Shown: positions 17,966 to 24,289 of the stretch, in pieces | How the letters are laid out: each line of letters opens with the position of its first letter | Numbering within the stretch: position 1 is the stretch's first letter | Origin: Escherichia coli | GTDB lineage: Bacteria > Pseudomonadota > Gammaproteobacteria > Enterobacterales > Enterobacteriaceae | Assembly: GCF_050920415.1 (NCBI RefSeq) | Contig: NZ_CP169309.1 | Strand: one strand, 5' to 3' | DNA length: 64,000 bases | Program-made: the position numbers and the translations under genes | Notes under the pieces: generated by a model | Database searches by the model: none | Told to the model about the DNA's origin: nothing | Seen by the model: only the letters and a program-made list of their open reading frames with translations

Positions 17966-18217
17966 TTATTCTCCAGCGCTTTTAACGTTGATGGTTGTAA
18001 CCTGTTCCGCTTCGGCAATCTCCCATTCTGTCAGCGTGGCAAAGTTTGCCGCCGCTGTGGTCATGAATGCGCTTATCAGGTCGGGATGTGCTTTCGCGTA
18101 TCCTTCCCCCGTGTTGCGGTCGATGATTTTTATCGCCACTCTCAGCCAGTGCTCTGTAAGGTCAATGGCGCGGTTATGCTGCTTCTTCTGATTATTAAGT
18201 TTTCCTGATGTGCGCAT
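17966..18217 (-). CDS. Hypothetical protein (83 aa)
   Basis: ORF MRTSGKLNNQKKQHNRAIDLTEHWLRV..., followed by the cassette B terminator. No family recognised. Confidence 0.5.
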   Translation of the reverse strand: MRTSGKLNNQKKQHNRAIDLTEHWLRVAIKIIDRNTGEGYAKAHPDLISAFMTTAAANFATLTEWEIAEAEQVTTINVKSAGE

Positions 18218-18261
18218 TTTTATTTTTACCCCCTCGTTTAAAAAGTTTTGAGTTGTGCCTC

Positions 18262-18500
18262 CCCTTGTCTACCTTATCTACCTTACTGGCCACCATGCCA
18301 GTAATGGCGCGGCTTTCAGTGGGGTAGAGTGCTTTTATCCACTATCTACCCCGTATCTACCTCCCTGTCTGATTCAGGTAAAATCAGGTAGAGAGGGTAG
18401 ATAGTAGGTAGACAGTAAAAAAAGGCTGTCTACCCAAGTTAATGTACTGAATTAAATGTATTTTTCTTTACTCAGGTAGACAGGGTAGACAGCCATTGCA
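18262..18500. repeat. Iteron array (putative replication origin of the island)
   Basis: Eleven copies of (G/A)TCTACC or its complement GGTAGA(C/T/G), starting at 18267, 18276, 18322, 18344, 18355, 18387, 18396, 18407, 18428, 18475 and 18484. They flank an AT-rich stretch (18436-18470). The array lies immediately 3' of the primase-helicase gene. Confidence 0.7.
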
Positions 18501-18505
18501 ACAAA

Positions 18506-20254
18506 TTATAAAAACGCGTCGCAATCGTCTGTTGTTATTGCGTTAGTCTGCGTTACTCCTTTAACTTTCCGCGTAATATATTCATGTCCGTAAACTTTCG
18601 CGGCTGGCTTCATAGCCTTGCCAAAGTCATTTACGTTTAGCGGTTTGCTCCTGCCTGCGTACGCCATAAACGCCAGATAGACGCGGTAAAGGCTGTTTCT
18701 GGTCGTGTACTTCACTGAATCGCCACCGCCGCCCATCATCAGGCCGCGTGCTTCCTCCAGAAAATTCAGGAACTGGCAAAACTCAATAACCGGATCCGTC
18801 TGTTGCTTTATTGCCAGTGCTTCATCACCGTCACGCTGTTCAATGAGTAAAGCCCGTGCCTTTTCAGGGTCGGCAAAGTTCGCCAGCAAGCGGCGGATAA
18901 TGACAGGGATTTCAGCCGCGATCTTTTCCGGTAGCTCCCTGTCTTTTTCTGCCTCGCTTACGATGTTATCGAACCGGAATATCACCCGACGACGTGCCAC
19001 ACCTCCGGCCCGTTCGGTGAATATCATCGGATTGTTATTGGTTGCCAGCACCACCGCCCTGATTACCGCCGTAAAACGCTTTTCATATTTCGGGTTAATT
19101 TCCACGGGGTCGCCGCCCGTGATTTTCTTGATGCCCGTTCCTTCGCCTGTATATTTCTGCTGGTCTGCCAGGACGATAAGACGACTCCCGACAACCTGCG
19201 CACGCCCACCAGCATCATCAAGCGATGTCATTTCAGCGCTTACCGTGTTTTGTTTCCCTGCCAGAAGGCTGGCTATGTGTGTGAATGTACTTTTACCGCT
19301 CCCGCCGTCTCCGGTGGCCTCAATAAACATCTGCCAGTCGTACCGGTTCGCCATAATCATGTACAGCGCGGCACATATACGCATCATCTTGCTCGGGTCT
19401 TTTCCGGCTGCGTGCTCAAGCCATTTATGAAAGTTTGGCGCGTTATCGCGGATGTTCTCCCCGGGTGCTGGTGGCGTGTACTCAATGCCGTTGTGCGTGG
19501 TGATCCAGTTCTCCGGCGTGTGCGGGGAAAATTCCCCCGTTTTCAGGTCAAGCGCACCATTGGCGAACGGCAGCAAATCGCCGGACGGCTCGCCCATTGG
19601 TTCGGCAATAACTTTTAACGCTTCCACGGCGTTATTGATTACGCGCTTGCTGAAAGTGGCCCTGTGCTCTGAATAGATAGCCACCATTTCGCGGCTCAGC
19701 TCCATTGTGCTGACCGGACACCATACCCCGCCGCGCCATACGTGAACGATTTCACTTTCAGGATGCACACAAACGCCATCAAAGCGCTCGGCAAGCAGCT
19801 GCGCGCGCTCACTGTCTGCCATTTGTGCCAGTTGCGTATTTTTCTGCTCCGGCATGGTAAGCCCTGCGGCAATATTTTCACGCTCAGCATTCAGATAGCG
19901 CCGCCAGTTTTCACACTTCTGGACGTGCATTCCTTCGGGGTAAAAATTTGCGTCCTGAATATCTGCCGCCGCCAGCTTCTGACCAATCTTTTTGGTCTCC
20001 ACCAAATCCAGTTCTCCGGCCTGGTACAGCCTTACGCGCTTTTTCCCATCCGGAACAATTTTCAGTGCATCAAGTTCGGCAAGCTGATTTGGCCCAAGCC
20101 ACACAGGCGGCACATTATCGCCGGATGCGGGGCCATCCTGCTCCTGCCATTGTTTCGCGTGCGACCAGGCATCACTACCCGCGAAAATAATTACCTCTGT
20201 GTCTTTGTGTTTTATTCCGCGTGGCTGTTTTTTTACGTTCGGTGCCAGTTTCAT
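18506..20254 (-). CDS. P4/D5-family primase-helicase (replication initiator, SF3 NTPase)
   Basis: 582 aa. Walker A GDGGSGKST, Walker B LIVLADQ. A D5_N-like region (LPFANGALDLKTGEFSPHTPENWITT) and a C-terminal DNA-binding-like domain. Confidence 0.8.
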   Translation of the reverse strand: MKLAPNVKKQPRGIKHKDTEVIIFAGSDAWSHAKQWQEQDGPASGDNVPPVWLGPNQLAELDALKIVPDGKKRVRLYQAGELDLVETKKIGQKLAAADIQDANFYPEGMHVQKCENWRRYLNAERENIAAGLTMPEQKNTQLAQMADSERAQLLAERFDGVCVHPESEIVHVWRGGVWCPVSTMELSREMVAIYSEHRATFSKRVINNAVEALKVIAEPMGEPSGDLLPFANGALDLKTGEFSPHTPENWITTHNGIEYTPPAPGENIRDNAPNFHKWLEHAAGKDPSKMMRICAALYMIMANRYDWQMFIEATGDGGSGKSTFTHIASLLAGKQNTVSAEMTSLDDAGGRAQVVGSRLIVLADQQKYTGEGTGIKKITGGDPVEINPKYEKRFTAVIRAVVLATNNNPMIFTERAGGVARRRVIFRFDNIVSEAEKDRELPEKIAAEIPVIIRRLLANFADPEKARALLIEQRDGDEALAIKQQTDPVIEFCQFLNFLEEARGLMMGGGGDSVKYTTRNSLYRVYLAFMAYAGRSKPLNVNDFGKAMKPAAKVYGHEYITRKVKGVTQTNAITTDDCDAFL

Positions 20255-20550
20255 TTTTTACCCCTGAATACGTTAAGCATCTTTTTTATTTCCTGAATAT
20301 TGGCGCGTGCTTTCTCCCTGCTGGTTGGTTTACTGCGGGGCGCTGCCTGTACCAGAGAAAAATCACGCCGAAACTGATAAACAGGCATCACGCAATCATA
20401 TTCGTAGCCTTCACGACGGTAGGTGATGCGCCGTTCTGCCACGCCTTTAATCGTTACCATGCCGCCATATTTATCGCGGTAAATATCGCCGCGCGTAAAT
20501 TTAGGGTGAGTGTTGCCACTAGCAGTTAAGCCAGAAATTTTCTTTTTCAT
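20251..20550 (-). CDS. Small conserved satellite protein (possibly DUF4222-like)
   Basis: 99 aa with an ATGA overlap onto the primase start. The GDIYRDKYGGMVTIKGVAERRITYRREGY motif resembles proteins found upstream of primases in P4-like islands. This comparison is from memory only. Confidence 0.5.
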   Translation of the reverse strand: MKKKISGLTASGNTHPKFTRGDIYRDKYGGMVTIKGVAERRITYRREGYEYDCVMPVYQFRRDFSLVQAAPRSKPTSREKARANIQEIKKMLNVFRGKK

Positions 20551-20566
20551 GGTTTTTATTCCGCGT

Positions 20567-20782
20567 TTATTTTTTATCGTGAATTTCGATCGCTTTATTT
20601 AATTCGGTGATTACCGTATCGAGTAATGAAATAAACGCACCAGCAAGATTAGATTCACGTTCACCTTCCGGCGCATCACTTAAACCATCAAGCCAGATAA
20701 GCAATATTTGCCGCAAGCATTCACTGTTAGTCAGTGCGTTTTCTGCATGGCTCATTAATTTAAAATAACGGTCATCATGCAT
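20567..20782 (-). CDS. Hypothetical protein (71 aa from MHDDRYFK)
   Basis: The start overlaps the stop of the upstream ORF (ATGCATGA). The ORF track offers a longer 86-aa form. Confidence 0.45.
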   Translation of the reverse strand: MHDDRYFKLMSHAENALTNSECLRQILLIWLDGLSDAPEGERESNLAGAFISLLDTVITELNKAIEIHDKK

Positions 20783-21011
20783 GGTGCGCCCCTTGAATAT
20801 CTGCGGTAAGAATTTTGCCTGCCTCATTCAGCGCCATATCAGCACTAAGTTGCATAACCGCCAGCGAATGAGGAACGAAAGCCCCTGCATATTCTGTTTC
20901 ACTGGTGGCGTGCTTATGCGCCATGTCAGCAATAACAGAAATATCAATAAGCGCATCCATCAGCGTTTTGATGGCTTCGGCGGCTGCGTCCGGACGGGGG
21001 TTATTGCACAT
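20775..21011 (-). CDS. Hypothetical protein (78 aa)
   Basis: The ORF overlaps the Icd-like gene stop by 11 nt. Operon context only. Confidence 0.45.
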   Translation of the reverse strand: MCNNPRPDAAAEAIKTLMDALIDISVIADMAHKHATSETEYAGAFVPHSLAVMQLSADMALNEAGKILTADIQGAHHA

Positions 21012-21207
21012 GGCGCACCTCCTGACGAATACGGGCGGCGAATACCATCACGCAGCCAGCCGGGGATTGCTGGCGGGCTTCCTGTTCGCTGGTGGCCTCG
21101 ATGGTAATCACGCGCGGTTGTGCCGTGCTCAGGGCGATAAAACGCCAGATGTATTTATTCAGGTTGTGCGAATCCCGCCCTTGCGGGTGTGTGGTATGAT
21201 TTCTCAT
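21001..21207 (-). CDS. Icd-like (host cell division inhibitor-like) small protein
   Basis: This is the last 68 codons of the 367-aa ORF: MRNHTTHPQGRDSHNLNKYIWRFIALS...ATSEQEARQQSPAGCVMVFAARI. The pattern is recalled from Icd-like proteins of P4-type prophages. Confidence 0.5.
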   Translation of the reverse strand: MRNHTTHPQGRDSHNLNKYIWRFIALSTAQPRVITIEATSEQEARQQSPAGCVMVFAARIRQEVRHVQ

Positions 21208-21291
21208 AGCTGCCTCGATACTCTTTCTATCGTTGGTGGTTAGACGCCCTGCATGTGTGCCACCACTGCGGGGCGTTGCGTTTTTTGATGC

Positions 21292-21347
21292 ACACGTGTT
21301 AAGGTGTACACCTACAAAGCAAAAACATAACGCCATAGGTGTACACA
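21292..21347. promoter_or_regulatory. Palindromic operators upstream of and overlapping the RHH gene start
   Basis: ACACGTGT (21292-21299), AGGTGTACACCT (21302-21313, a perfect 12-mer) and AGGTGTACAC (21338-21347, abutting ATG 21347). Confidence 0.55.
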
Positions 21348-21541
21348 TGTCAACAGTTATTAAGCGCGATAAAAAACAAAAAGGCACAGGAAAGACCCCA
21401 CCGTTCCATATGCGTATAGTTCCTGAATTGAAGGAGCAGTTTGATAACGAAGCCAGTAACGATGGAGTAAGTCTTGCCAACTGGCTTAAAGAGTTGGGGC
21501 GCGCCGAACTAAAGCGACGCGGCATTGAACCTAAAGGCTGA
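21347..21541 (+). CDS. Ribbon-helix-helix (Arc/MetJ/CopG-like) DNA-binding protein
   Basis: 64 aa from MSTVIKRDKKQKG. FHMRIVPELKEQFDNEASNDGVSLANWLKELGRAEL fits a beta-strand/helix/helix RHH pattern. Confidence 0.55.
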   Translation: MSTVIKRDKKQKGTGKTPPFHMRIVPELKEQFDNEASNDGVSLANWLKELGRAELKRRGIEPKG

Positions 21542-21544
21542 TGT

Positions 21545-21664
21545 ATGACCGATAACAAACTTTCTCTAACAGAGAATAAACCATCAGGCTTCTTACCAAG
21601 AAAAATCCTTGATGAGATCAAACGCCGCCAGCGTAAAAAATCCAAAGGAGCAGACACGGAATAG
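21545..21664 (+). CDS. Micro-ORF, 39-aa highly basic peptide
   Basis: MTDNKLSLTENKPSGFLPRKILDEIKRRQRKKSKGADTE. It starts 3 nt after the RHH stop. Found by hand translation, as it falls below the ORF-track cutoff. Confidence 0.3.
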   Translation: MTDNKLSLTENKPSGFLPRKILDEIKRRQRKKSKGADTE

Positions 21665-21667
21665 CTT

Positions 21668-21832
21668 ATGCAACAAATACCATACTGGCTTGGCTCTCTG
21701 TTTGTATTTGCATTTCTCATGAAATATTGCATTAGCAATGAACTTGTCGGTAATGAAAGTGCATGCGCGAGCGCTGAAAAAAATATTCCACTTCTCGTAT
21801 ATGAAAACGAAAGCCCTGTGAACCGCAATTGA
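21668..21832 (+). CDS. Micro-ORF, 54-aa peptide with hydrophobic N-terminus
   Basis: MQQIPYWLGSLFVFAFLMKYCISNE... It starts 3 nt after the previous stop. Found by hand translation. Confidence 0.3.
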   Translation: MQQIPYWLGSLFVFAFLMKYCISNELVGNESACASAEKNIPLLVYENESPVNRN

Positions 21833-22108
21833 GCGAAATTTAATGAATTCACTCTTTGCCCACCAGCCGCAAATGTGGCATTGTTGGCGATGCTCATGCG
21901 TTGGGGATAACGTGTAGCTTGTGTCGAAGGGCCATCGTGACAGGTGGCCTTTTCTTTACCTGTTATCTGGCAATTGTGGCGCTTCGTCACACGGTTGATA
22001 TAATTCCCCTGCACTGATCCATTTTTTTCGCAGCAGGTTAATTGTTCGCAAGGGCGCTCCGGCAACGGGGCGCTTTTTGTTATGTTCATCACGTTACGCC
22101 TCACACCA

Positions 22109-22315
22109 TTACGCAGCCGTTCCGCGCGCTTCTTCCTCGCGCTCTTTCAGCCAGGCCAGCACTTCATCTTCATACCAGCCAACACGACGCAGACCGATTT
22201 TGAAGCCTTTCGGAAATTTTCCGGCGTTGATCATGTCCTGTAGCGAACTGTCTGCCTTGATGCGCAGAATATTTTTTACTTCCTGACGGGTAAGAATTTT
22301 TCTGATTGTTTCCAC
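22109..22315 (-). CDS. alpA: AlpA-family (MerR-like HTH) phage/satellite transcriptional regulator-excisionase
   Basis: 68 aa. ILTRQEVKNILRIKADSSLQDMINAGKFPKGFKIGLRRVGWYEDEVLAWL is the typical AlpA/Xis HTH pattern. Confidence 0.8.
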   Translation of the reverse strand: METIRKILTRQEVKNILRIKADSSLQDMINAGKFPKGFKIGLRRVGWYEDEVLAWLKEREEEARGTAA

Positions 22316-22383
22316 TATGTTTTACCTCGTTAATCCGGCGTATTCCGGTGATAAATACGGTAAAACAGGGCAGGGCGGGAAAA

Positions 22384-22417
22384 ACAGTACCCACCGTTTT
22401 AAAACGGTACCCACTGT
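22384..22417. promoter_or_regulatory. Composite operator upstream of alpA
   Basis: ACAGT-ACCCAC-CGTTTTAAAACG-GT-ACCCAC-TGT. It contains a perfect 16-bp palindrome ACCGTTTTAAAACGGT (22393-22408), direct ACCCAC repeats and outer ACAGT/ACTGT arms. Confidence 0.5.
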
Positions 22418-22485
22418 TTTTTATCTTATTGATTACGCTTTTCTTTCTGCAAAAAAATAGCGACCGCAAGGGGCCGCTATTGTGA

Positions 22486-22728
22486 TTACCGTTTCCACTT
22501 CTTAGGTCGCCCACCGCATTTAAGGCTGGTGGGCCTCAGCACCTTGTCGATGCTTTCAGCCAGATTTTTCGATGCGCCACGCGAGCGCAAAAAACTGACT
22601 ACCTCGTGTTTTGTGGGGGCAGTTGATTTGTCTTCCGGATCGTACGTTGACCAGAATTCACGATTTGCCATTAAGGCCAACTGAAGGCCTTCACCATAGG
22701 CAGGGGATACCTTTTCATTGAAAAACAC
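22486..22728 (-). CDS. Hypothetical protein (80 aa) with basic C-terminal tail
   Basis: ORF between int and alpA ending ...GGRPKKWKR, followed by a hairpin and T7 run. No family recognised. Confidence 0.5.
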   Translation of the reverse strand: MFFNEKVSPAYGEGLQLALMANREFWSTYDPEDKSTAPTKHEVVSFLRSRGASKNLAESIDKVLRPTSLKCGGRPKKWKR

Positions 22729-22829
22729 TCGGATAACTCCTTGAATTTCAAGAGTCGGGTCTCTCTGTATATGGTGATTATACGATGGTTTAGCATGGTT
22801 TGCATCGCTTTTACTGGTTTTTTGTACAG

Positions 22830-24071
22830 TTATACGGCACGGATACCCCTTTTACCACTGGCTATGGTCACTCCGGTTGCTGCGGCCTCTACAAATTCCC
22901 CCCACCAGCGCATAAGCACCACGCGCTTTTCCAGGTAGTTACTTCGGTTATATGCTCGCCTTACCTCGTTCGTGTCCACGTGTGCGAGTGCGGCCTCGAT
23001 TACGTCCGGCTCGAATCCTTCCTCGTTCGCTGCTGTGCTGAATATGGCGCGTAATCCATGAGACACCAGCACGCCAGCGAATCCCATTCGCCGCAATGCT
23101 GCGTTGGCGGTCTGGCTGTTCATAGGCTGCCGTGGGTCTTTCAGGCTAGGGAAAACGTGCTCGCGGTGGTGGCTGATTGGCTTCATGGCCTCCAGTACCG
23201 CCATAGCCTGACTACAAAGCGGGATAACGTGATCACGCCGCATCTTCATGCGTCCGGCGGGGATCGTCCATTGTTGCGCGTCCATGTCGATTTCTTCCCA
23301 GCGTGCTGACGATGCTTCAACCGGACGGGTTACAGTCAGTAGCTGCCATTCAATCAGTAATCTGGTCTGCCGTTCTGTTGCTGATACGGATAAAGCCTGC
23401 ATAAGCTCCGGCAACTGTTCGGGGCGGATTGTTGGCATATGTTTTTTTACAGGGGAGGGGAACGCCTTACGCACATTCATAGCCGGATTGGCATCAATCA
23501 GCCCACTGTTGGCGGCGTAATCCATTACCTCATTAACGCGCTGTAAAACCCGCTTGAGTGTTTCCAGGTTGCCGCGCTCCTTGATGGGTGTAAGCACCTC
23601 AACGAACCTTCGGGCAGTGAGGGTATCTATTGGCGTGTTGCCGATGAACGGGAATACATATTTATCCAGCGAACGCCAGATGTCTTTAATCGTGTTGGGG
23701 GCCAGATTCTGGCTGATTTTCACCTGGTACCATGCCGCCGCCACATTTTCGAACGTGTTCCCTTGTCTTCGGGCCTCTGCCTCTCGTTTTTTCTTCTCAT
23801 GGTCCTGCGGGTCAGTTCCGGCACTGATTAACGTCCTGTACTCGCTACGGCGTTTTCTGGCATCAGCCAGGGAAACATCTTCAAGAGATCCAAAACTCAG
23901 CAATATTCTTTTTTTGTCCGATGGTCGGTAGTAGGAAAATCGCCAGAGTTTTGATCCGGACGGTTTTACCAGGAGAAAAAGCCCACCGCCGTCCTGTAGG
24001 GTGTACTCCTTTTGCGCTGGTCTGGCTGCTTTGATCTGCACTGTGGTTAATGGGGGTGTTTTTCTCGCCAT
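22830..24071 (-). CDS. int: P4/CP4-57-type tyrosine integrase
   Basis: 413 aa from MARKTPPLTTVQIKAARP...GGLFLLVKPSGSKLWRFSY (the N-terminal arm-binding domain typical of P4-type integrases). The catalytic region contains HGLR...ALAH...Y. The gene is adjacent to a tRNA. Confidence 0.9.
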   Translation of the reverse strand: MARKTPPLTTVQIKAARPAQKEYTLQDGGGLFLLVKPSGSKLWRFSYYRPSDKKRILLSFGSLEDVSLADARKRRSEYRTLISAGTDPQDHEKKKREAEARRQGNTFENVAAAWYQVKISQNLAPNTIKDIWRSLDKYVFPFIGNTPIDTLTARRFVEVLTPIKERGNLETLKRVLQRVNEVMDYAANSGLIDANPAMNVRKAFPSPVKKHMPTIRPEQLPELMQALSVSATERQTRLLIEWQLLTVTRPVEASSARWEEIDMDAQQWTIPAGRMKMRRDHVIPLCSQAMAVLEAMKPISHHREHVFPSLKDPRQPMNSQTANAALRRMGFAGVLVSHGLRAIFSTAANEEGFEPDVIEAALAHVDTNEVRRAYNRSNYLEKRVVLMRWWGEFVEAAATGVTIASGKRGIRAV

Positions 24072-24102
24072 ATGTCTATGATTCCACACGAAAAAACAGG
24101 GT

Positions 24103-24158
24103 TTTAGTTATACGGCTTTAGTTATACGCCAGCCCGTATAACTAAACGTATAACTAAA
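24103..24158. repeat. Four copies of the 11-mer GTATAACTAAA (two inverted, two direct), putative integrase arm-type sites
   Basis: Inverted copies at 24103-24113 and 24117-24127. Direct copies at 24136-24146 and 24148-24158. Confidence 0.6.
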
Positions 24159-24208
24159 AAATCCGGCTGATAGCTTATAAATCCGGTGATGTTCGGTGAC
24201 TAAAAACC

Positions 24209-24243
24209 ATAAAAAAACCCGCCAATCAAGTGATTAGCGGGTT
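24209..24243 (-). terminator. Rho-independent terminator downstream of proL, supplied by island DNA
   Basis: On the minus strand: AACCCGC-(14 nt)-GCGGGTT followed by T7. Confidence 0.6.
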
Positions 24244-24289
24244 ATCCCTGTCTTATTCGGTGCTTTCCGGTGATATCCGGTGGGCGATT

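What the first reader, a model, noticed from the sequence alone, without database searches (positions are those of the whole stretch)
21233..21960. Opposite-strand micro-operon (RHH protein plus 39-aa basic and 54-aa hydrophobic peptides) embedded in the alpA-to-primase operon and shadowed by a 367-codon antisense ORF
On the plus strand, three palindromes precede or overlap the ATG of a 64-aa RHH protein. They are ACACGTGT, AGGTGTACACCT and AGGTGTACAC. This looks like autoregulation.

Two further ORFs follow, each with only a 3-nt gap: 21545-21664 (39 aa, net strongly basic) and 21668-21832 (54 aa, with a hydrophobic N-terminus). A GGCCA-(10 nt)-TGGCC hairpin plus TTTTC follows, at about 21931-21958.

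The compact RHH plus small-peptide arrangement resembles toxin-antitoxin or abortive-infection/superinfection-exclusion modules often carried by satellites. It is transcribed against the surrounding operon.

On the minus strand the same DNA is stop-free for 367 codons (21001-22104). Only the last 68 codons (the Icd-like protein) look like a real protein.
Basis: partly seen in the sequence, partly recalled or inferred. Interest (0 to 1): 0.5.

Follow-up and report, generated by a model that had tools for sequence, protein, structure and literature searches.

The report
Satellite control switch with Arc-like repressor
This stretch looks like the control switch of a phage-parasitic island: a small Arc-like repressor gene with matching operators sits backwards inside a long translated reading frame that links the activator gene alpA to the replication genes, which offers a testable candidate for the repressor that had not been found in Gram-negative islands of this kind.

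Summary

The 64-aa protein is an Arc-like ribbon-helix-helix repressor, not a toxin-antitoxin component. Across about 55 loci in Enterobacterales, its two operators change together with the residues predicted to contact DNA (at least 8 classes). The operators cover an invariant opposite-strand promoter (TTGACA, formed by RHH codons 1-3) that should drive the Icd-like-to-primase operon.

The 39-aa and 54-aa ORFs are real, rare small genes. The plus frame is always more constrained than the antisense frame. They sit in a cargo slot that holds known defence genes in other lineages. Their function is unknown.

The 367-codon ORF matches phage P4's eta with kil nested at its end. P4 Kil belongs to the same Icd-like family, and the ORF starts at the stop codon of the upstream gene in several genera. 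Its amino-acid sequence is unconstrained, so it is probably translated only to let AlpA-driven transcription pass.

A conserved plus-strand antisense RNA over the Icd start site was also found. P4's C4/CI immunity RNA is absent. All mechanistic steps are inferred from sequence.

The parts
21347..21541 (+). Arc-like ribbon-helix-helix repressor gene (64 aa; WP_000108740.1)
   Evidence: Annotated by PGAP. The family keeps a length of 61-64 aa down to 61% identity. Profile against PDB: best hit P22 Arc, E 0.0012. AF2 model: extended N-terminus plus helices 26-38 and 43-57, pLDDT 84-93 in that region. Foldseek top hit Arc 1par, prob 1.00. Synonymous sites are saturated in 3 of 4 pairs (omega 0.09 in the fourth) while dN is 0.10-0.25.
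21302..21313 (.). Operator O1, AGGTGTACACCT (perfect 12-bp palindrome)
   Evidence: The sequence occurs only here and at O2 in the window. It covaries with O2 and with RHH residues 19 and 21 across at least 8 classes. It lies at about +5 to +16 of the predicted minus-strand promoter and in the spacer of the candidate RHH promoter.
21337..21346 (.). Operator O2, AGGTGTACAC, abutting the RHH start codon and overlapping its Shine-Dalgarno sequence
   Evidence: It lies in the 18-nt spacer between the minus-strand -35 and -10.
21292..21299 (.). ACACGTGT palindrome (probably incidental, or part of the RHH promoter -35 region)
   Evidence: Present in E. coli-lineage islands only. Other lineages have ACCGTGTT, CCATGTT and similar at this position.
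21324..21353 (-). Predicted promoter of the Icd/Kil-like-to-primase operon (-35 TTGACA 21353-21348, 18-nt spacer, -10 TATGTT 21329-21324). Analogue of P4 PLE
   Evidence: The only sigma-70-type hit in the scan. TTGACA is invariant in 55 of 55 distinct sequences, and Ser2 is always encoded by TCA (59 of 59). A TAnnnT -10 at 17-18 nt is found in 34 of 55 sequences against a background of 6.8%.
21289..21318 (+). Candidate RHH-operon promoter (-10 TACAAA 21313-21318, directly after O1). Weakest element of the model
   Evidence: At the same position Providencia has TATAAA, L036 has TAATAT and L016 has TATTAC. Read by eye only; it was not picked up by the scan.
21545..21664 (+). 39-aa basic small protein (net +5), starting 3 nt after the RHH stop
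   Evidence: In-frame relatives of 41-43 aa occur in E. coli, Citrobacter, Salmonella and a metagenome, with a conserved core AGFLP.K.L.E.KRRQRRKAKE. There is a 12-nt in-frame indel. Omega is 0.26-0.40 in the plus frame against 0.49-1.04 in the antisense frame. The C-terminal half resembles helix 2 plus tail of YlcI/YnfO proteins. No family model matches.
21668..21832 (+). 54-aa small protein with a hydrophobic N-terminal segment (residues 8-22) and two conserved Cys
   Evidence: Five in-frame members in two subfamilies (54 and 47 aa, about 60% identical). Each starts 3 nt after an ORF ending ...EIKRRQRKK.K..D.E. Omega is 0.34-0.42 in the plus frame against 0.42-0.71 in the antisense frame. 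Only one relative cluster exists among 1.84 billion representatives. Never annotated by PGAP.
21851..21925 (+). Near-invariant segment at the 3' end of the plus-strand operon, marking the right border of the variable cargo
   Evidence: Conserved at 90-95% in more than 700 E. coli genomes whatever the cargo. The region 21836-21962 is structured on the plus strand only (-41.4 kcal/mol, z -2.1, against z +0.6 on the minus strand). Function unknown.
21926..21961 (+). Intrinsic terminator T1 of the plus-strand operon (11-bp stem, then UUUUCUUU)
   Evidence: Fold -16.9 kcal/mol, z -3.4. Stem conserved and loop variable between islands.
22048..22085 (+). Intrinsic terminator T2 (back-up), just before the 3' end of alpA
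   Evidence: Found by the terminator scan. Fold -20.4 kcal/mol, z -4.5. Conserved in all islands; in the eta-like frame it reads KSAPLPER.
21001..22104 (-). eta-like long ORF (367 codons from GTG 22104; 362 from ATG 22089, which has GAGG 9 nt upstream), antisense to the whole plus-strand module
   Evidence: Stop-free. P about 0.0003 when the non-ORF parts are shuffled. The GTG lies 4 nt after the alpA stop. Homologous ORFs in other genera overlap the upstream stop by 1-8 nt. The frame is open through the RHH gene in 17 of 55 loci, all in one phase. The amino-acid sequence is unconserved outside the two ends. P4 eta has the same layout.
21001..21207 (-). Icd-like / Kil-like gene (68 aa) nested at the 3' end of the eta-like ORF
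   Evidence: NF033153 at E 1.5e-19. P4 Kil matches the same model at E 1.6e-21. Direct BLASTP of the two proteins: E 0.005.
21195..21200 (+). -10 element TATGAT (extended: TGGTATGAT from 21192) of a plus-strand promoter inside Icd codons 3-5
   Evidence: A TAnnnT hexamer lies 3-12 nt before the first minus gene's start codon in 48 of 48 distinct sequences, ending exactly 10 nt before it in 41 and 4 nt before it in 5. Background is 10.8%. The N-terminal protein sequences differ between groups.
21207..21286 (+). Candidate cis-antisense RNA of about 80 nt, covering the Icd/Kil Shine-Dalgarno sequence and start codon. It comprises a small hairpin 21216-21232, a long hairpin 21243-21277 and a U-run 21281-21286
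   Evidence: In the long hairpin there are 362 Watson-Crick pairs, 81 G.U pairs on the plus strand and 1 on the minus strand. Alifold energy is -19.3 (plus) against -2.1 (minus). The plus strand is more stable in 44 of 44 sequences. In the window: -35.4 kcal/mol, z -4.9 (plus) against -23.7, z -2.5 (minus). The U-run is present in many lineages but not all. No Rfam family matches.
22109..22315 (-). alpA (activator; vis homologue), the gene immediately upstream of the eta-like ORF
   Evidence: Pfam Phage_AlpA, E 4.5e-8. PGAP annotation. Role as activator in E. coli PICIs: PMC6092414.

Best explanation
The region is the immunity and control switch of a PICI-type phage satellite integrated at tRNA-Pro. 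It is built on the plan of phage P4 (vis, then eta with kil nested at its end), but its immunity factors lie on the opposite strand.

1. The repressor. The 64-aa protein is an Arc-like ribbon-helix-helix repressor. As a dimer it binds two copies of GGTGTACAC(C). O2 lies in the spacer of a strong minus-strand promoter (TTGACA, 18 nt, TATGTT) that reads into the Icd/Kil-like gene and on to the primase. O1 lies just downstream of that promoter's start site, and in the spacer of the repressor's own promoter. Bound repressor therefore keeps the replication operon off and limits its own synthesis. In the quiescent island the plus-strand operon is what is expressed.

2. The antisense RNA. A second plus-strand promoter, inside the first codons of the Icd-like gene, makes an antisense RNA of about 80 nt. 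This RNA covers the Icd/Kil ribosome-binding site and backs up the repression.

3. The cargo. The repressor operon carries cargo at its 3' end: here a 39-aa basic protein and a 54-aa membrane-type protein, and known anti-phage genes in other lineages. It ends at two terminators before alpA.

4. Induction. When a helper phage switches on alpA, transcription from the alpA promoter must cross about 900 nt of antisense module to reach the replication genes. The 367-codon ORF is translationally coupled to alpA and is kept free of stop codons. Ribosomes can then follow the polymerase and prevent Rho-dependent termination, as shown for P4 eta. This transcription should also collide with and silence the repressor operon, which would make the switch irreversible.

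Shown by sequence analysis: the RHH fold and its closeness to Arc; operator-protein covariation; the invariant promoter elements; the strand-specific RNA structure; coding selection on the plus-strand ORFs; Kil/Icd homology; start-stop coupling of the long ORF.

Inferred: DNA binding, repression, existence of the antisense RNA, the anti-termination role, transcriptional interference, and any function of the two peptides. My best guess for the peptides is an exclusion or defence accessory role, with low confidence.
For: RHH fold and Arc relationship.

The alignment to Arc places family positions 19, 21 and 23 on Arc Gln9, Asn11 and Arg13. That these are the base-contacting residues is from my own knowledge of the Arc-operator structure 1par.

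Operator covariation, with both copies matching within each island: PFHMRI with GGTGTACAC; QFRMRI with GGTGACCAC; QFKMRI with GGTGGCCAC; AFQ[IV]RI with GGTGTGTACC and its reverse complement; TFQIRI with GGTACGTAC; [ML]FNVR[IL] with GGTCTATAC; IFSVRL with GGTCCATAC; HFKMRI with TGGGGCCCC.

Minus-strand promoter; TGTCAA invariant and Ser2 always TCA (59 of 59); -10 at 17-18 nt in 34 of 55 against 6.8% background.

The RHH gene is always divergent from the first gene of the replication operon, with or without cargo.

Antisense RNA: -10 element in 48 of 48; 81 G.U pairs on the plus strand against 1 on the minus strand; alifold -19.3 against -2.1; fold z -4.9.

eta/kil: P4 Kil matches NF033153 at 1.6e-21; the P4 layout; the P4 mechanism as summarised in PMC10111431; start-stop coupling; open frame through the RHH gene in 17 of 55 loci, all in phase 1; null models.

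C4/isrK are present in P4 and absent from 8 related islands and from the window.

Cargo slot holds defence genes elsewhere: PDC-M01A 2.6e-223, AriA/OLD-like 5.7e-22, cll 1.1e-20, 2TM effector 2.1e-21.

Peptides are real genes.

The literature states that a global repressor of Gram-negative PICIs is unclear (PMC6092414). It lists HicB and YlcI/YnfO in satellites only as accessory or TA genes (PMC13612085).
Against: - No transcript, binding or phenotype data exist. Every mechanistic step is inferred.
- TGTCAA also encodes Met-Ser-Thr, so part of its invariance could reflect protein or translation-initiation constraints.
- The RHH gene's own promoter is weak by consensus and was not detected by the scan.
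- The U-run after the leader hairpin is missing in several lineages, so the plus-strand RNA may be a leader of the RHH mRNA rather than a separate small RNA.
- The eta-like frame is closed in 38 of 55 loci and in E. coli islands with larger cargo (L002, L010, L011, L013), so it is not essential to all such islands.
- Given the plus-strand protein sequences, antisense openness over the ORFs is expected with P 0.17-0.75.
- The loci are phylogenetically related, so the counts overstate the number of independent events.
- The published EcCICFT073 work found AlpA sufficient for induction without invoking a repressor. I did not check whether EcCICFT073 carries this RHH gene.
- dN/dS for the two peptides is only moderately below 1 (0.26-0.42), and each rests on a few short sequences.
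Confidence: 0.6

Rival explanations
1. Toxin-antitoxin or abortive-infection module. The RHH protein would be a HicB-like antitoxin and autorepressor. One or both peptides, most plausibly the hydrophobic 54-aa product, would be the toxin or effector it controls.
For: PGAP and NCBI name close homologues 'HicB family antitoxin'. There is a weak Pfam HicB match, E 0.0079. Many RHH structural neighbours are antitoxins. The gene spacing is tight (3 nt). The 54-aa product has a membrane-type segment. The slot carries defence genes in other lineages.
Against: The HicB score of 16.5 bits is below the 21-bit cut-off and covers only the RHH part. At 64 aa there is no room for a HicB N-terminal domain. 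No HicA or other toxin or defence model matches any product. The RHH gene occurs alone or with unrelated cargo in most lineages, whereas its operators and its position against the replication operon are constant. The relatives of the 54-aa gene follow a different (YlcI/YnfO) gene in L007 and L093, so it is not paired with this RHH protein.
Confidence: 0.07
2. The 367-codon antisense ORF is a compositional by-product and is not translated. Lys/Glu/Arg-rich plus-strand genes, all in one phase because they are copies of a few cassettes, simply do not generate antisense stop codons.
For: With the plus proteins held fixed and codons resampled, the antisense frame stays open with P 0.17 (whole window) to 0.75 (single ORFs). 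The cassettes and their 3-nt and 57-nt spacers recur between islands. The frame closes in islands with larger cargo and in 38 of 55 loci. The translated sequence is low-complexity and unconserved, with omega up to 1.04. No Pfam, NCBIfam, PHROGs or PADLOC family matches outside its Icd-like C-terminal end; PADLOC was run only on its N-terminal 78 aa.
Against: The non-ORF stretches are also stop-free: 21835-22104 P 0.011, 21208-21345 P 0.09, overall about 0.0003. The first start codon abuts or overlaps the stop of the upstream gene in at least 6 genera whose DNA is far diverged. The frame is open through the RHH gene in 17 of 35 phase-1 loci, against a rough expectation of 5%. There is an experimentally studied precedent with the same gene order and a homologous nested gene, P4 eta/kil.
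Confidence: 0.25
3. The RHH protein regulates only its own (cargo) operon. The replication operon would be controlled solely by AlpA, as in the published PICI model, and the TTGACA element would be a coincidence of the Met-Ser-Thr coding sequence.
For: Autoregulation is the commonest role of small RHH proteins (general knowledge). Published work found AlpA necessary for induction of EcCICFT073, and its overexpression sufficient. The TGTCAA sequence is within coding sequence.
Against: Ser2 uses TCA in 59 of 59 cases out of six possible codons, and the next codon always starts with A. A -10 hexamer sits 17-18 nt away far more often than background. The distance from the RHH gene to the first gene of the opposing operon, and the leader elements between them, are conserved even where that first gene differs.
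Confidence: 0.12
4. The long minus-strand ORF is the only real gene here, a long Icd-like protein, and the plus-strand ORFs are artefacts.
For: Some pipelines call long Icd-like proteins across this DNA: 137 aa in L002, 258 aa in L015, 396 aa in L095. phrog_6196 aligns about 20 residues upstream of the 68-aa start. PGAP flags the alpA-proximal part as an Icd-like fragment.
Against: The plus frame is more conserved than the minus frame in all 11 comparisons. The RHH family has Arc homology by sequence and by fold and covaries with its operators. The middle of the minus-frame translation differs completely between islands.
Confidence: 0.02

Closest known systems
Phage P4 left operon: vis (alpA homologue), then eta with kil nested at its end, then the replication genes (Forti et al. 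1999, J Bacteriol 181:5225, as summarised in PMC10111431)
   Same: Same gene order. A long ORF starts at the end of the alpA homologue and ends in a Kil/Icd-like domain (NF033153 in both). A promoter internal to the long ORF sits just upstream of the nested gene. The operon continues to a primase.
   Different: P4's immunity factor is the CI (C4-type) RNA, with isrK and a1b1 targets on the operon strand. These are detected in P4 but not here or in 8 related islands. Here the long ORF contains three opposite-strand protein genes, their promoter and operators, an antisense RNA and two terminators, and is about twice as long (367 against 197-199 codons). The rest of the island is PICI-like, with no psu, delta or sid genes.
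Phage P22 immI region: Arc (and Mnt) repressors at the overlapping divergent promoters Pant and Pmnt
   Same: Arc is the closest solved relative by sequence profile and by fold. It is a small RHH repressor whose operator lies within promoter spacers of divergent overlapping promoters. The P22 details are from my own knowledge.
   Different: About 25% identity only. There are two separate palindromic operators about 35 bp apart rather than one 21-bp operator. The controlled operon is a satellite replication operon, not an antirepressor gene. The repressor gene lies antisense inside a translated ORF.
SaPI Stl / Gram-positive PICI Rpr master repressors
   Same: The repressor is transcribed divergently from the replication operon, in an island that stays quiescent until a helper phage acts (PMC6092414).
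   Different: Stl and Rpr are larger helix-turn-helix proteins transcribed together with int and relieved by helper-phage proteins. Here the repressor is a 64-aa RHH protein placed between alpA and the replication genes. Relief is proposed to come from AlpA-driven read-through, not from an anti-repressor. Nothing here has been tested.
HicB antitoxins (HicAB type II toxin-antitoxin systems)
   Same: They share the RHH DNA-binding motif, and database names for close homologues say 'HicB family antitoxin'.
   Different: There is no HicA partner and no HicB N-terminal domain, the Pfam score is below its cut-off, and no toxin partner is conserved.
Repressor-plus-defence operons of temperate phages (lambda cI-rexAB), and noncontiguous operons (opposite-strand gene interrupting an operon, as discussed for phi80 tai in PMC11364771)
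   Same: The immunity gene is followed by variable anti-phage cargo expressed in the quiescent state. An opposite-strand unit interrupts a co-directional operon.
   Different: The cargo here consists of two tiny proteins of unknown function. The interrupted operon is bridged by a translated ORF rather than by read-through RNA alone.

Membership tests
Ribbon-helix-helix (Arc/MetJ) repressors | Beta-alpha-alpha fold of about 45 residues | tested here: met
   The AF2 model has an extended segment followed by helices 26-38 and 43-57. All top Foldseek hits are RHH proteins, with Arc first at prob 1.00 and TM 0.63/0.76. The strand itself is expected only in the dimer, which was not modelled.
Ribbon-helix-helix (Arc/MetJ) repressors | N-terminal strand with alternating residues that read bases | tested here: met
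   The profile alignment to Arc puts positions 19, 21 and 23 on Gln9, Asn11 and Arg13. Positions 19 and 21 are the ones that vary with operator class, and R23 is invariant.
Ribbon-helix-helix (Arc/MetJ) repressors | Binds repeated or palindromic operators at the regulated promoter | not testable with these tools
   Two matching palindromic sites are present at 40-44 nt and 0-10 nt upstream of the start codon in nearly all loci. Binding itself needs EMSA or footprinting.
HicAB toxin-antitoxin | Adjacent HicA toxin gene | tested here: not met
   No HicA or any other family matches the neighbouring ORFs. The neighbours vary or are absent across lineages.
HicAB toxin-antitoxin | HicB family match above the curated threshold, with an N-terminal HicB domain | tested here: not met
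   PF05534 scores 16.5 bits against a cut-off of 21, over residues 20-48 only. The protein is 64 aa.
P4-type eta/kil nested genes | Nested C-terminal gene of the Kil/Icd-like family | tested here: met
   NF033153 matches the window protein at 1.5e-19 and P4 Kil at 1.6e-21. Direct BLASTP gives E 0.005.
P4-type eta/kil nested genes | Long ORF in the same frame, starting at the end of the alpA/vis homologue (translational coupling) | tested here: met
   GTG 22104 lies 4 nt after the alpA stop, and ATG 22089 has GAGG 9 nt upstream. In other genera the start overlaps the upstream stop by 1-8 nt. The P4 eta frame overlaps the vis 3' end.
P4-type eta/kil nested genes | Promoter internal to the long ORF, upstream of the nested gene (PLE) | tested here: met
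   Sequence prediction only: TTGACA, 18 nt, TATGTT at 21353-21324, conserved across lineages.
P4-type eta/kil nested genes | C4/CI-type immunity RNA and its targets on the operon strand | tested here: not met
   No C4, isrK or c4-a1b1 hit at E up to 1 in the window or in 8 related islands. P4 gives 74.9, 60.8 and 44.1 bits as a positive control.
P4-type eta/kil nested genes | Translation of the long ORF suppresses Rho-dependent termination | not testable with these tools
   Requires nonsense mutants and Rho inhibition. The only indirect evidence is that the frame is kept open while its sequence is free to vary.
YlcI/YnfO family (for the 39-aa product) | Match to the family model | tested here: not met
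   No NCBIfam or Pfam hit. Only the C-terminal AGFL..-EIKRRQRRKAKE stretch aligns with YlcI/YnfO proteins of sister islands.
Known anti-phage defence systems (PADLOC) | Match of any window product to a defence model | tested here: not met
   No hits at E up to 0.1 for RHH, the 39-aa and 54-aa products or the eta-like N-terminus. Cargo at the same slot in other lineages does match.
PICI-type phage satellite (context) | int and alpA, then a primase operon with ori downstream, integrated at a tRNA, small size, with a captured capsid gene | tested here: met
   PGAP annotation of the identical record; tRNA-Pro; iterons downstream of the primase gene; organisation as described in PMC6092414 and PMC10111431.

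The most novel reading that the evidence does not exclude
Many Gram-negative phage satellites do have a master repressor. It is a tiny Arc-like (or, in sister islands, YlcI/YnfO-type) RHH protein with at least eight operator specificities that would define satellite immunity groups. Its gene, its cargo and a cis-antisense RNA are encoded antisense inside a translated 'bridge' ORF whose sequence is free to vary. That ORF is kept stop-free only so that AlpA-driven transcription can cross the immunity module. This would be a natural case in which selection acts on the openness of a frame rather than on its product, over hundreds of codons overlapping real genes on the other strand.
Probability: 0.4. 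Interest if true: 0.8.

Novelty: new variant of a known kind. Interest (0 to 1): 0.66.

Why it matters
The paper that defined Gram-negative PICIs states that a global repressor in these elements is unclear and that only the activator AlpA is known (PMC6092414). This locus offers a concrete candidate: the protein, its two operators, the promoter it should block, and natural specificity variants ready for swap experiments.

If the candidate is right, satellites of this type have immunity groups, and their induction is a two-key process (AlpA on, repressor off).

It would also correct a widespread annotation, since these genes are currently labelled 'HicB antitoxin', 'YlcI/YnfO' or 'hypothetical' and counted as accessory or TA genes in satellite surveys (PMC13612085).

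It identifies a promoter-proximal slot where anti-phage genes are delivered.

Finally, it provides a tractable system for asking whether a long antisense-overlapping ORF can be maintained purely to keep ribosomes behind RNA polymerase.

Tried and rejected
- **Rfam.** Scanning the window (18000-25000) and eight related islands gave nothing at the module. The leader RNA is therefore not a C4/isrK/CI relative. The only hit there is a sub-threshold SymR match in L043.
- **Family libraries.** Pfam, NCBIfam, PHROGs and PADLOC found nothing for the 39-aa and 54-aa products.
- **Phage and plasmid collections.** These held only fragments of the Icd/leader region and no informative annotated relatives. 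tblastn of the Icd-like protein against phages found a single record and missed P4, so the P4 link was made through NF033153 instead.
- **Chance explanation for the antisense ORF.** I first treated it as chance. A codon-resampling null showed that the parts over the ORFs are unremarkable. The start-stop coupling and the P4 precedent then changed the assessment.
- **Leader hairpin as a universal terminator.** I first read the leader hairpin plus T-run as a universal intrinsic terminator. The T-run is missing in several lineages, so I claim only a strand-specific RNA structure.
- **Third operator.** ACACGTGT was rejected as a conserved third operator because it is lineage-specific.
- **Tool limits.** The 39-aa query was too short for the large protein search, so its 41-aa homologue from L008 was used. 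The primary P4 eta/kil paper (PMC94026) is not held. Its content is cited through PMC10111431 and from my own knowledge.
- **Literature.** Searches found no description of an RHH repressor, YlcI/YnfO function or an antisense RNA at this site.

Full report
**Context.** The window is identical to the E. coli 08-00022 chromosome. The finding lies in an island of about 10 kb integrated at tRNA-Pro. Its gene order is int, alpA, the module, an Icd-like gene, small genes, DUF4222, primase, and then a protease-capsid fusion. This is the organisation described for Gram-negative phage-inducible chromosomal islands (PMC6092414 and PMC10111431). Only 2 of 5,426 complete E. coli genomes carry the whole segment. 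More than 1,200 carry parts of it, so the site is a mosaic and variable slot.

**Checking the observation.**
- The RHH ORF is 21347-21541, the 39-aa ORF is 21545-21664 and the 54-aa ORF is 21668-21832, with 3-nt gaps.
- The three palindromes are at 21292-21299, 21302-21313 and 21337-21346.
- The hairpin is part of an 11-bp stem at 21926-21953 followed by a U-run.
- The minus-strand ORF runs 21001-22104 for 367 codons, and its last 68 codons are an Icd-like protein.
- GGTGTACAC occurs nowhere else in the 64 kb.

**The RHH protein.** PGAP already annotates it as a hypothetical protein. The large protein database returns a family of constant length (61-64 aa) down to 61% identity in Providencia, Enterobacter, Serratia and others. 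A profile of the family finds P22 Arc as the best solved relative (E 0.0012). The AlphaFold model shows an extended N-terminal segment and two helices. Foldseek ranks the Arc-operator co-crystal first, followed only by other RHH proteins. The Pfam HicB match that gives homologues their database name is below threshold, and no HicA partner is present.

**Operators and promoters.** In 59 loci from about 25 genera, the 9 nt abutting the start codon are repeated, directly or inverted, 40-44 nt upstream. The repeated sequence changes between lineages in step with the strand motif of the protein:
- PFHMRI goes with GGTGTACAC.
- QFRMRI goes with GGTGACCAC.
- QFKMRI goes with GGTGGCCAC.
- AFQ[IV]RI goes with GGTGTGTACC.
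- TFQIRI goes with GGTACGTAC.
- [ML]FNVR[IL] goes with GGTCTATAC.
- IFSVRL goes with GGTCCATAC.
- HFKMRI goes with TGGGGCCCC.

The alignment to Arc places the two variable positions and the invariant arginine on Arc Gln9, Asn11 and Arg13. From my own knowledge of the 1par structure, those are Arc's base-contacting residues.

The only sigma-70-type promoter found by the scan is on the minus strand: -35 TTGACA at 21353-21348 and -10 TATGTT at 21329-21324. Its -35 is formed by codons 1-3 of the RHH gene and is invariant in 55 of 55 distinct sequences. Ser2 is always encoded by TCA. A TAnnnT hexamer sits 17-18 nt away in 34 of 55 sequences, against a background of 6.8%. O2 therefore lies in the spacer of a promoter that reads into the Icd-like gene and the primase operon, and O1 lies just downstream of its start site. 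The RHH gene's own promoter is less clear. The best candidate has its -10 directly after O1, at 21313-21318.

In every lineage the RHH gene is divergent from the first gene of the replication operon. That holds whether it is followed by cargo or not.

**The two peptides.** The 39-aa ORF has in-frame relatives of 41-43 aa in other E. coli islands, Citrobacter, Salmonella and a metagenome. These share a conserved core and differ by a 12-nt in-frame indel. Its C-terminal half matches helix 2 and the basic tail of the YlcI/YnfO proteins that occupy the repressor position in sister islands.

The 54-aa ORF has four further in-frame relatives in two subfamilies, none of them annotated. Each starts 3 nt after an ORF that ends in the same basic tail. 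A Salmonella island has the same layout of 64 + 42 + 55 aa.

Nei-Gojobori estimates favour the plus frame over the overlapping minus frame in all 11 comparisons by aa identity and dN; dN/dS could be computed in 8 of them, because the plus-frame dS of three RHH pairs is saturated. Omega is 0.26-0.40 against 0.49-1.04 for the 39-aa ORF, and 0.34-0.42 against 0.42-0.71 for the 54-aa ORF. For RHH, synonymous sites are saturated in three of the four pairs, and omega is 0.09 in the fourth. The peptides are therefore real genes under moderate constraint. No family, defence or toxin model matches them.

In other lineages the same slot carries PDC-M01A, an AriA/OLD-like ATPase, 'cll' and a 2TM effector. 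The slot is thus an accessory and defence hotspot expressed from the repressor side.

**The long antisense ORF.** A null that keeps the plus-strand proteins and resamples codons shows that a stop-free antisense frame over those ORFs is unremarkable. The third codon positions of the two frames face each other, and the proteins are rich in Lys, Glu and Arg. Three other things call for explanation:
- The non-ORF stretches are also open, with overall P about 0.0003.
- The frame is open from alpA to Icd in many E. coli mosaics with different small-ORF cargo, and through the RHH gene in 17 of 55 loci from many genera.
- Its first start codon abuts or overlaps the stop codon of the upstream minus-strand gene. 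The offsets are -1 nt in two Providencia loci, -4 nt in Rahnella, Serratia and two Erwinia loci, -8 nt in Pectobacterium, and +4 nt after alpA in E. coli.

The translated sequence is not conserved between islands except at its two ends.

This is the arrangement known from phage P4. [quoted passage not shown] 1999). In the P4 record the eta frame overlaps the end of vis and ends in the 65-aa Kil. Kil matches the same Icd-like model as the window's protein.

P4's own immunity RNA system (C4, isrK, a1b1) is detected in P4. It is absent from the window and from eight related islands.

The frame is closed in islands with larger cargo and in most loci whose first replication-operon gene is of another type. 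The bridge ORF is therefore a feature of a subset of islands.

**An antisense RNA.** Between the Icd start and the operators lie a small hairpin whose loop carries the complement of the Shine-Dalgarno sequence, a conserved GTGGTTAG, and a long hairpin.
- Across 44 sequences the long hairpin has 362 Watson-Crick pairs and 81 G.U pairs on the plus strand, against a single G.U pair on the minus strand.
- RNAalifold gives -19.3 against -2.1, and the plus strand is the more stable in 44 of 44 sequences.
- A TAnnnT hexamer lies 3-12 nt before the start codon of the first minus gene in 48 of 48 distinct sequences, ending exactly 10 nt before it in 41 and 4 nt before it in 5. This holds although the encoded N-termini differ (background 10.8%).
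- In the window the predicted RNA (about 21207-21286) folds at -35.4 kcal/mol, z -4.9.
- The U-run that would make the hairpin a terminator is present in many lineages but not all.

**Model and limits.** In the quiescent island the plus-strand units are expressed: the antisense RNA, the repressor and the cargo, ending at two terminators before alpA. The repressor occludes the promoter of the replication operon. On induction, AlpA-dependent transcription, which is documented for EcCICFT073, crosses the module. It is protected by translation of the bridge ORF, opposes the repressor operon, and reaches Icd/Kil and the primase.

Nothing here has been tested experimentally. The loci are related, so counts are not independent events. 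I did not check whether the model island EcCICFT073 carries this repressor.

The searchable literature does not describe a repressor, operators or an antisense RNA at this site. It lists these genes only as toxin-antitoxin or accessory genes.

Noticed in passing
window 21192-21286 (+): A conserved plus-strand -10 element lies inside the first codons of the Icd-like gene, followed by a strand-specific hairpin structure. Together they predict a cis-antisense RNA of about 80 nt over the Icd/Kil ribosome-binding site. It is not in Rfam. The only hit at this position is a sub-threshold SymR match on the same strand in L043 (2853-2931).
   Followed up: yes
window 18263-18492: At least ten copies of GGTAGAYAG in both orientations lie directly downstream of the primase gene. 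These are probably the iterons of the island's replication origin, and they caused a spurious mir-3927 Rfam hit.
   Followed up: partly
L074 3233-4876; L076 3197-5188; L071 3251-4183; L043 3236-3793: In other genera the slot right after the RHH gene holds recognised anti-phage proteins: PDC-M01A, an AriA/OLD-like ATPase, 'cll' and a 2TM effector. This is a satellite defence hotspot on the repressor's transcript, different from the hotspots described next to pri or near cos.
   Followed up: partly
L003 3059-3251; L004 3059-3254; L007 1167-1365; L012 594-786: Sister islands with a YlcI/YnfO-type protein in the repressor position have their own lineage-specific inverted-repeat pairs next to a GTCAA element. 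Examples are GGTGTATTTCACC with GGTGAAATACAC, GGTGTTTAACACC with GGTGTTAAACAC, and GGTGTAAGACAC with GTGTCTTACAC. They share the same leader hairpins. YlcI/YnfO may therefore be an analogous repressor family.
   Followed up: no
L004, L005, L008, L009, L012, L093 (plus-strand arrays between Icd and alpA): The small plus-strand ORFs behave as shuffling cassettes. Many end in ...EIKRRQRRKAKEQE, followed either by a 3-nt gap or by a repeated 57-nt spacer containing the hairpin CACCAGCGCCGTGGTG. A family of about 60 aa with the motif ERFAPCAF.LE.FLKEYR recurs. The window's 39-aa ORF is itself a mosaic joined within the shared tail.
   Followed up: partly
window 21851-21925 (+): A near-invariant 75-nt segment precedes terminator T1 and is shared by more than 700 E. 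coli genomes whatever the cargo. It is structured only on the plus strand. It could be a conserved 3' UTR or small RNA, or simply the recombination border of the cargo slot.
   Followed up: partly
window 21001-21252; L010 1506-1739; L011 1506-1739; L003 3433-3889: PGAP marks the Icd-like gene here as a pseudogene 'missing N-terminus', and marks the alpA-proximal part of the long ORF in other islands as 'Icd-like, missing C-terminus'. These flags probably arise because full-length eta-like ORFs are in the reference protein set. They are not evidence of gene decay.
   Followed up: partly
L016-L018: These RHH-bearing satellites are flanked on both sides by fragments of a phage capsid gene (Phage_cap_E). 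They are therefore helper-embedded PICIs of the kind described in PMC10111431.
   Followed up: no
L014 7003-7072 (-): The Rfam family int-alpA RNA (RF02996; 45.6 bits, above its threshold) lies between int and alpA in the Providencia satellite. No such hit was found in the scanned part of the window, 18000-25000.
   Followed up: no
L014 4196-4348 (+): In Providencia the RHH gene is followed, again after a 3-nt gap, by an unrelated 50-aa ORF with a strongly hydrophobic N-terminus and three Cys. This resembles the window's 54-aa product in design but not in sequence.
   Followed up: no
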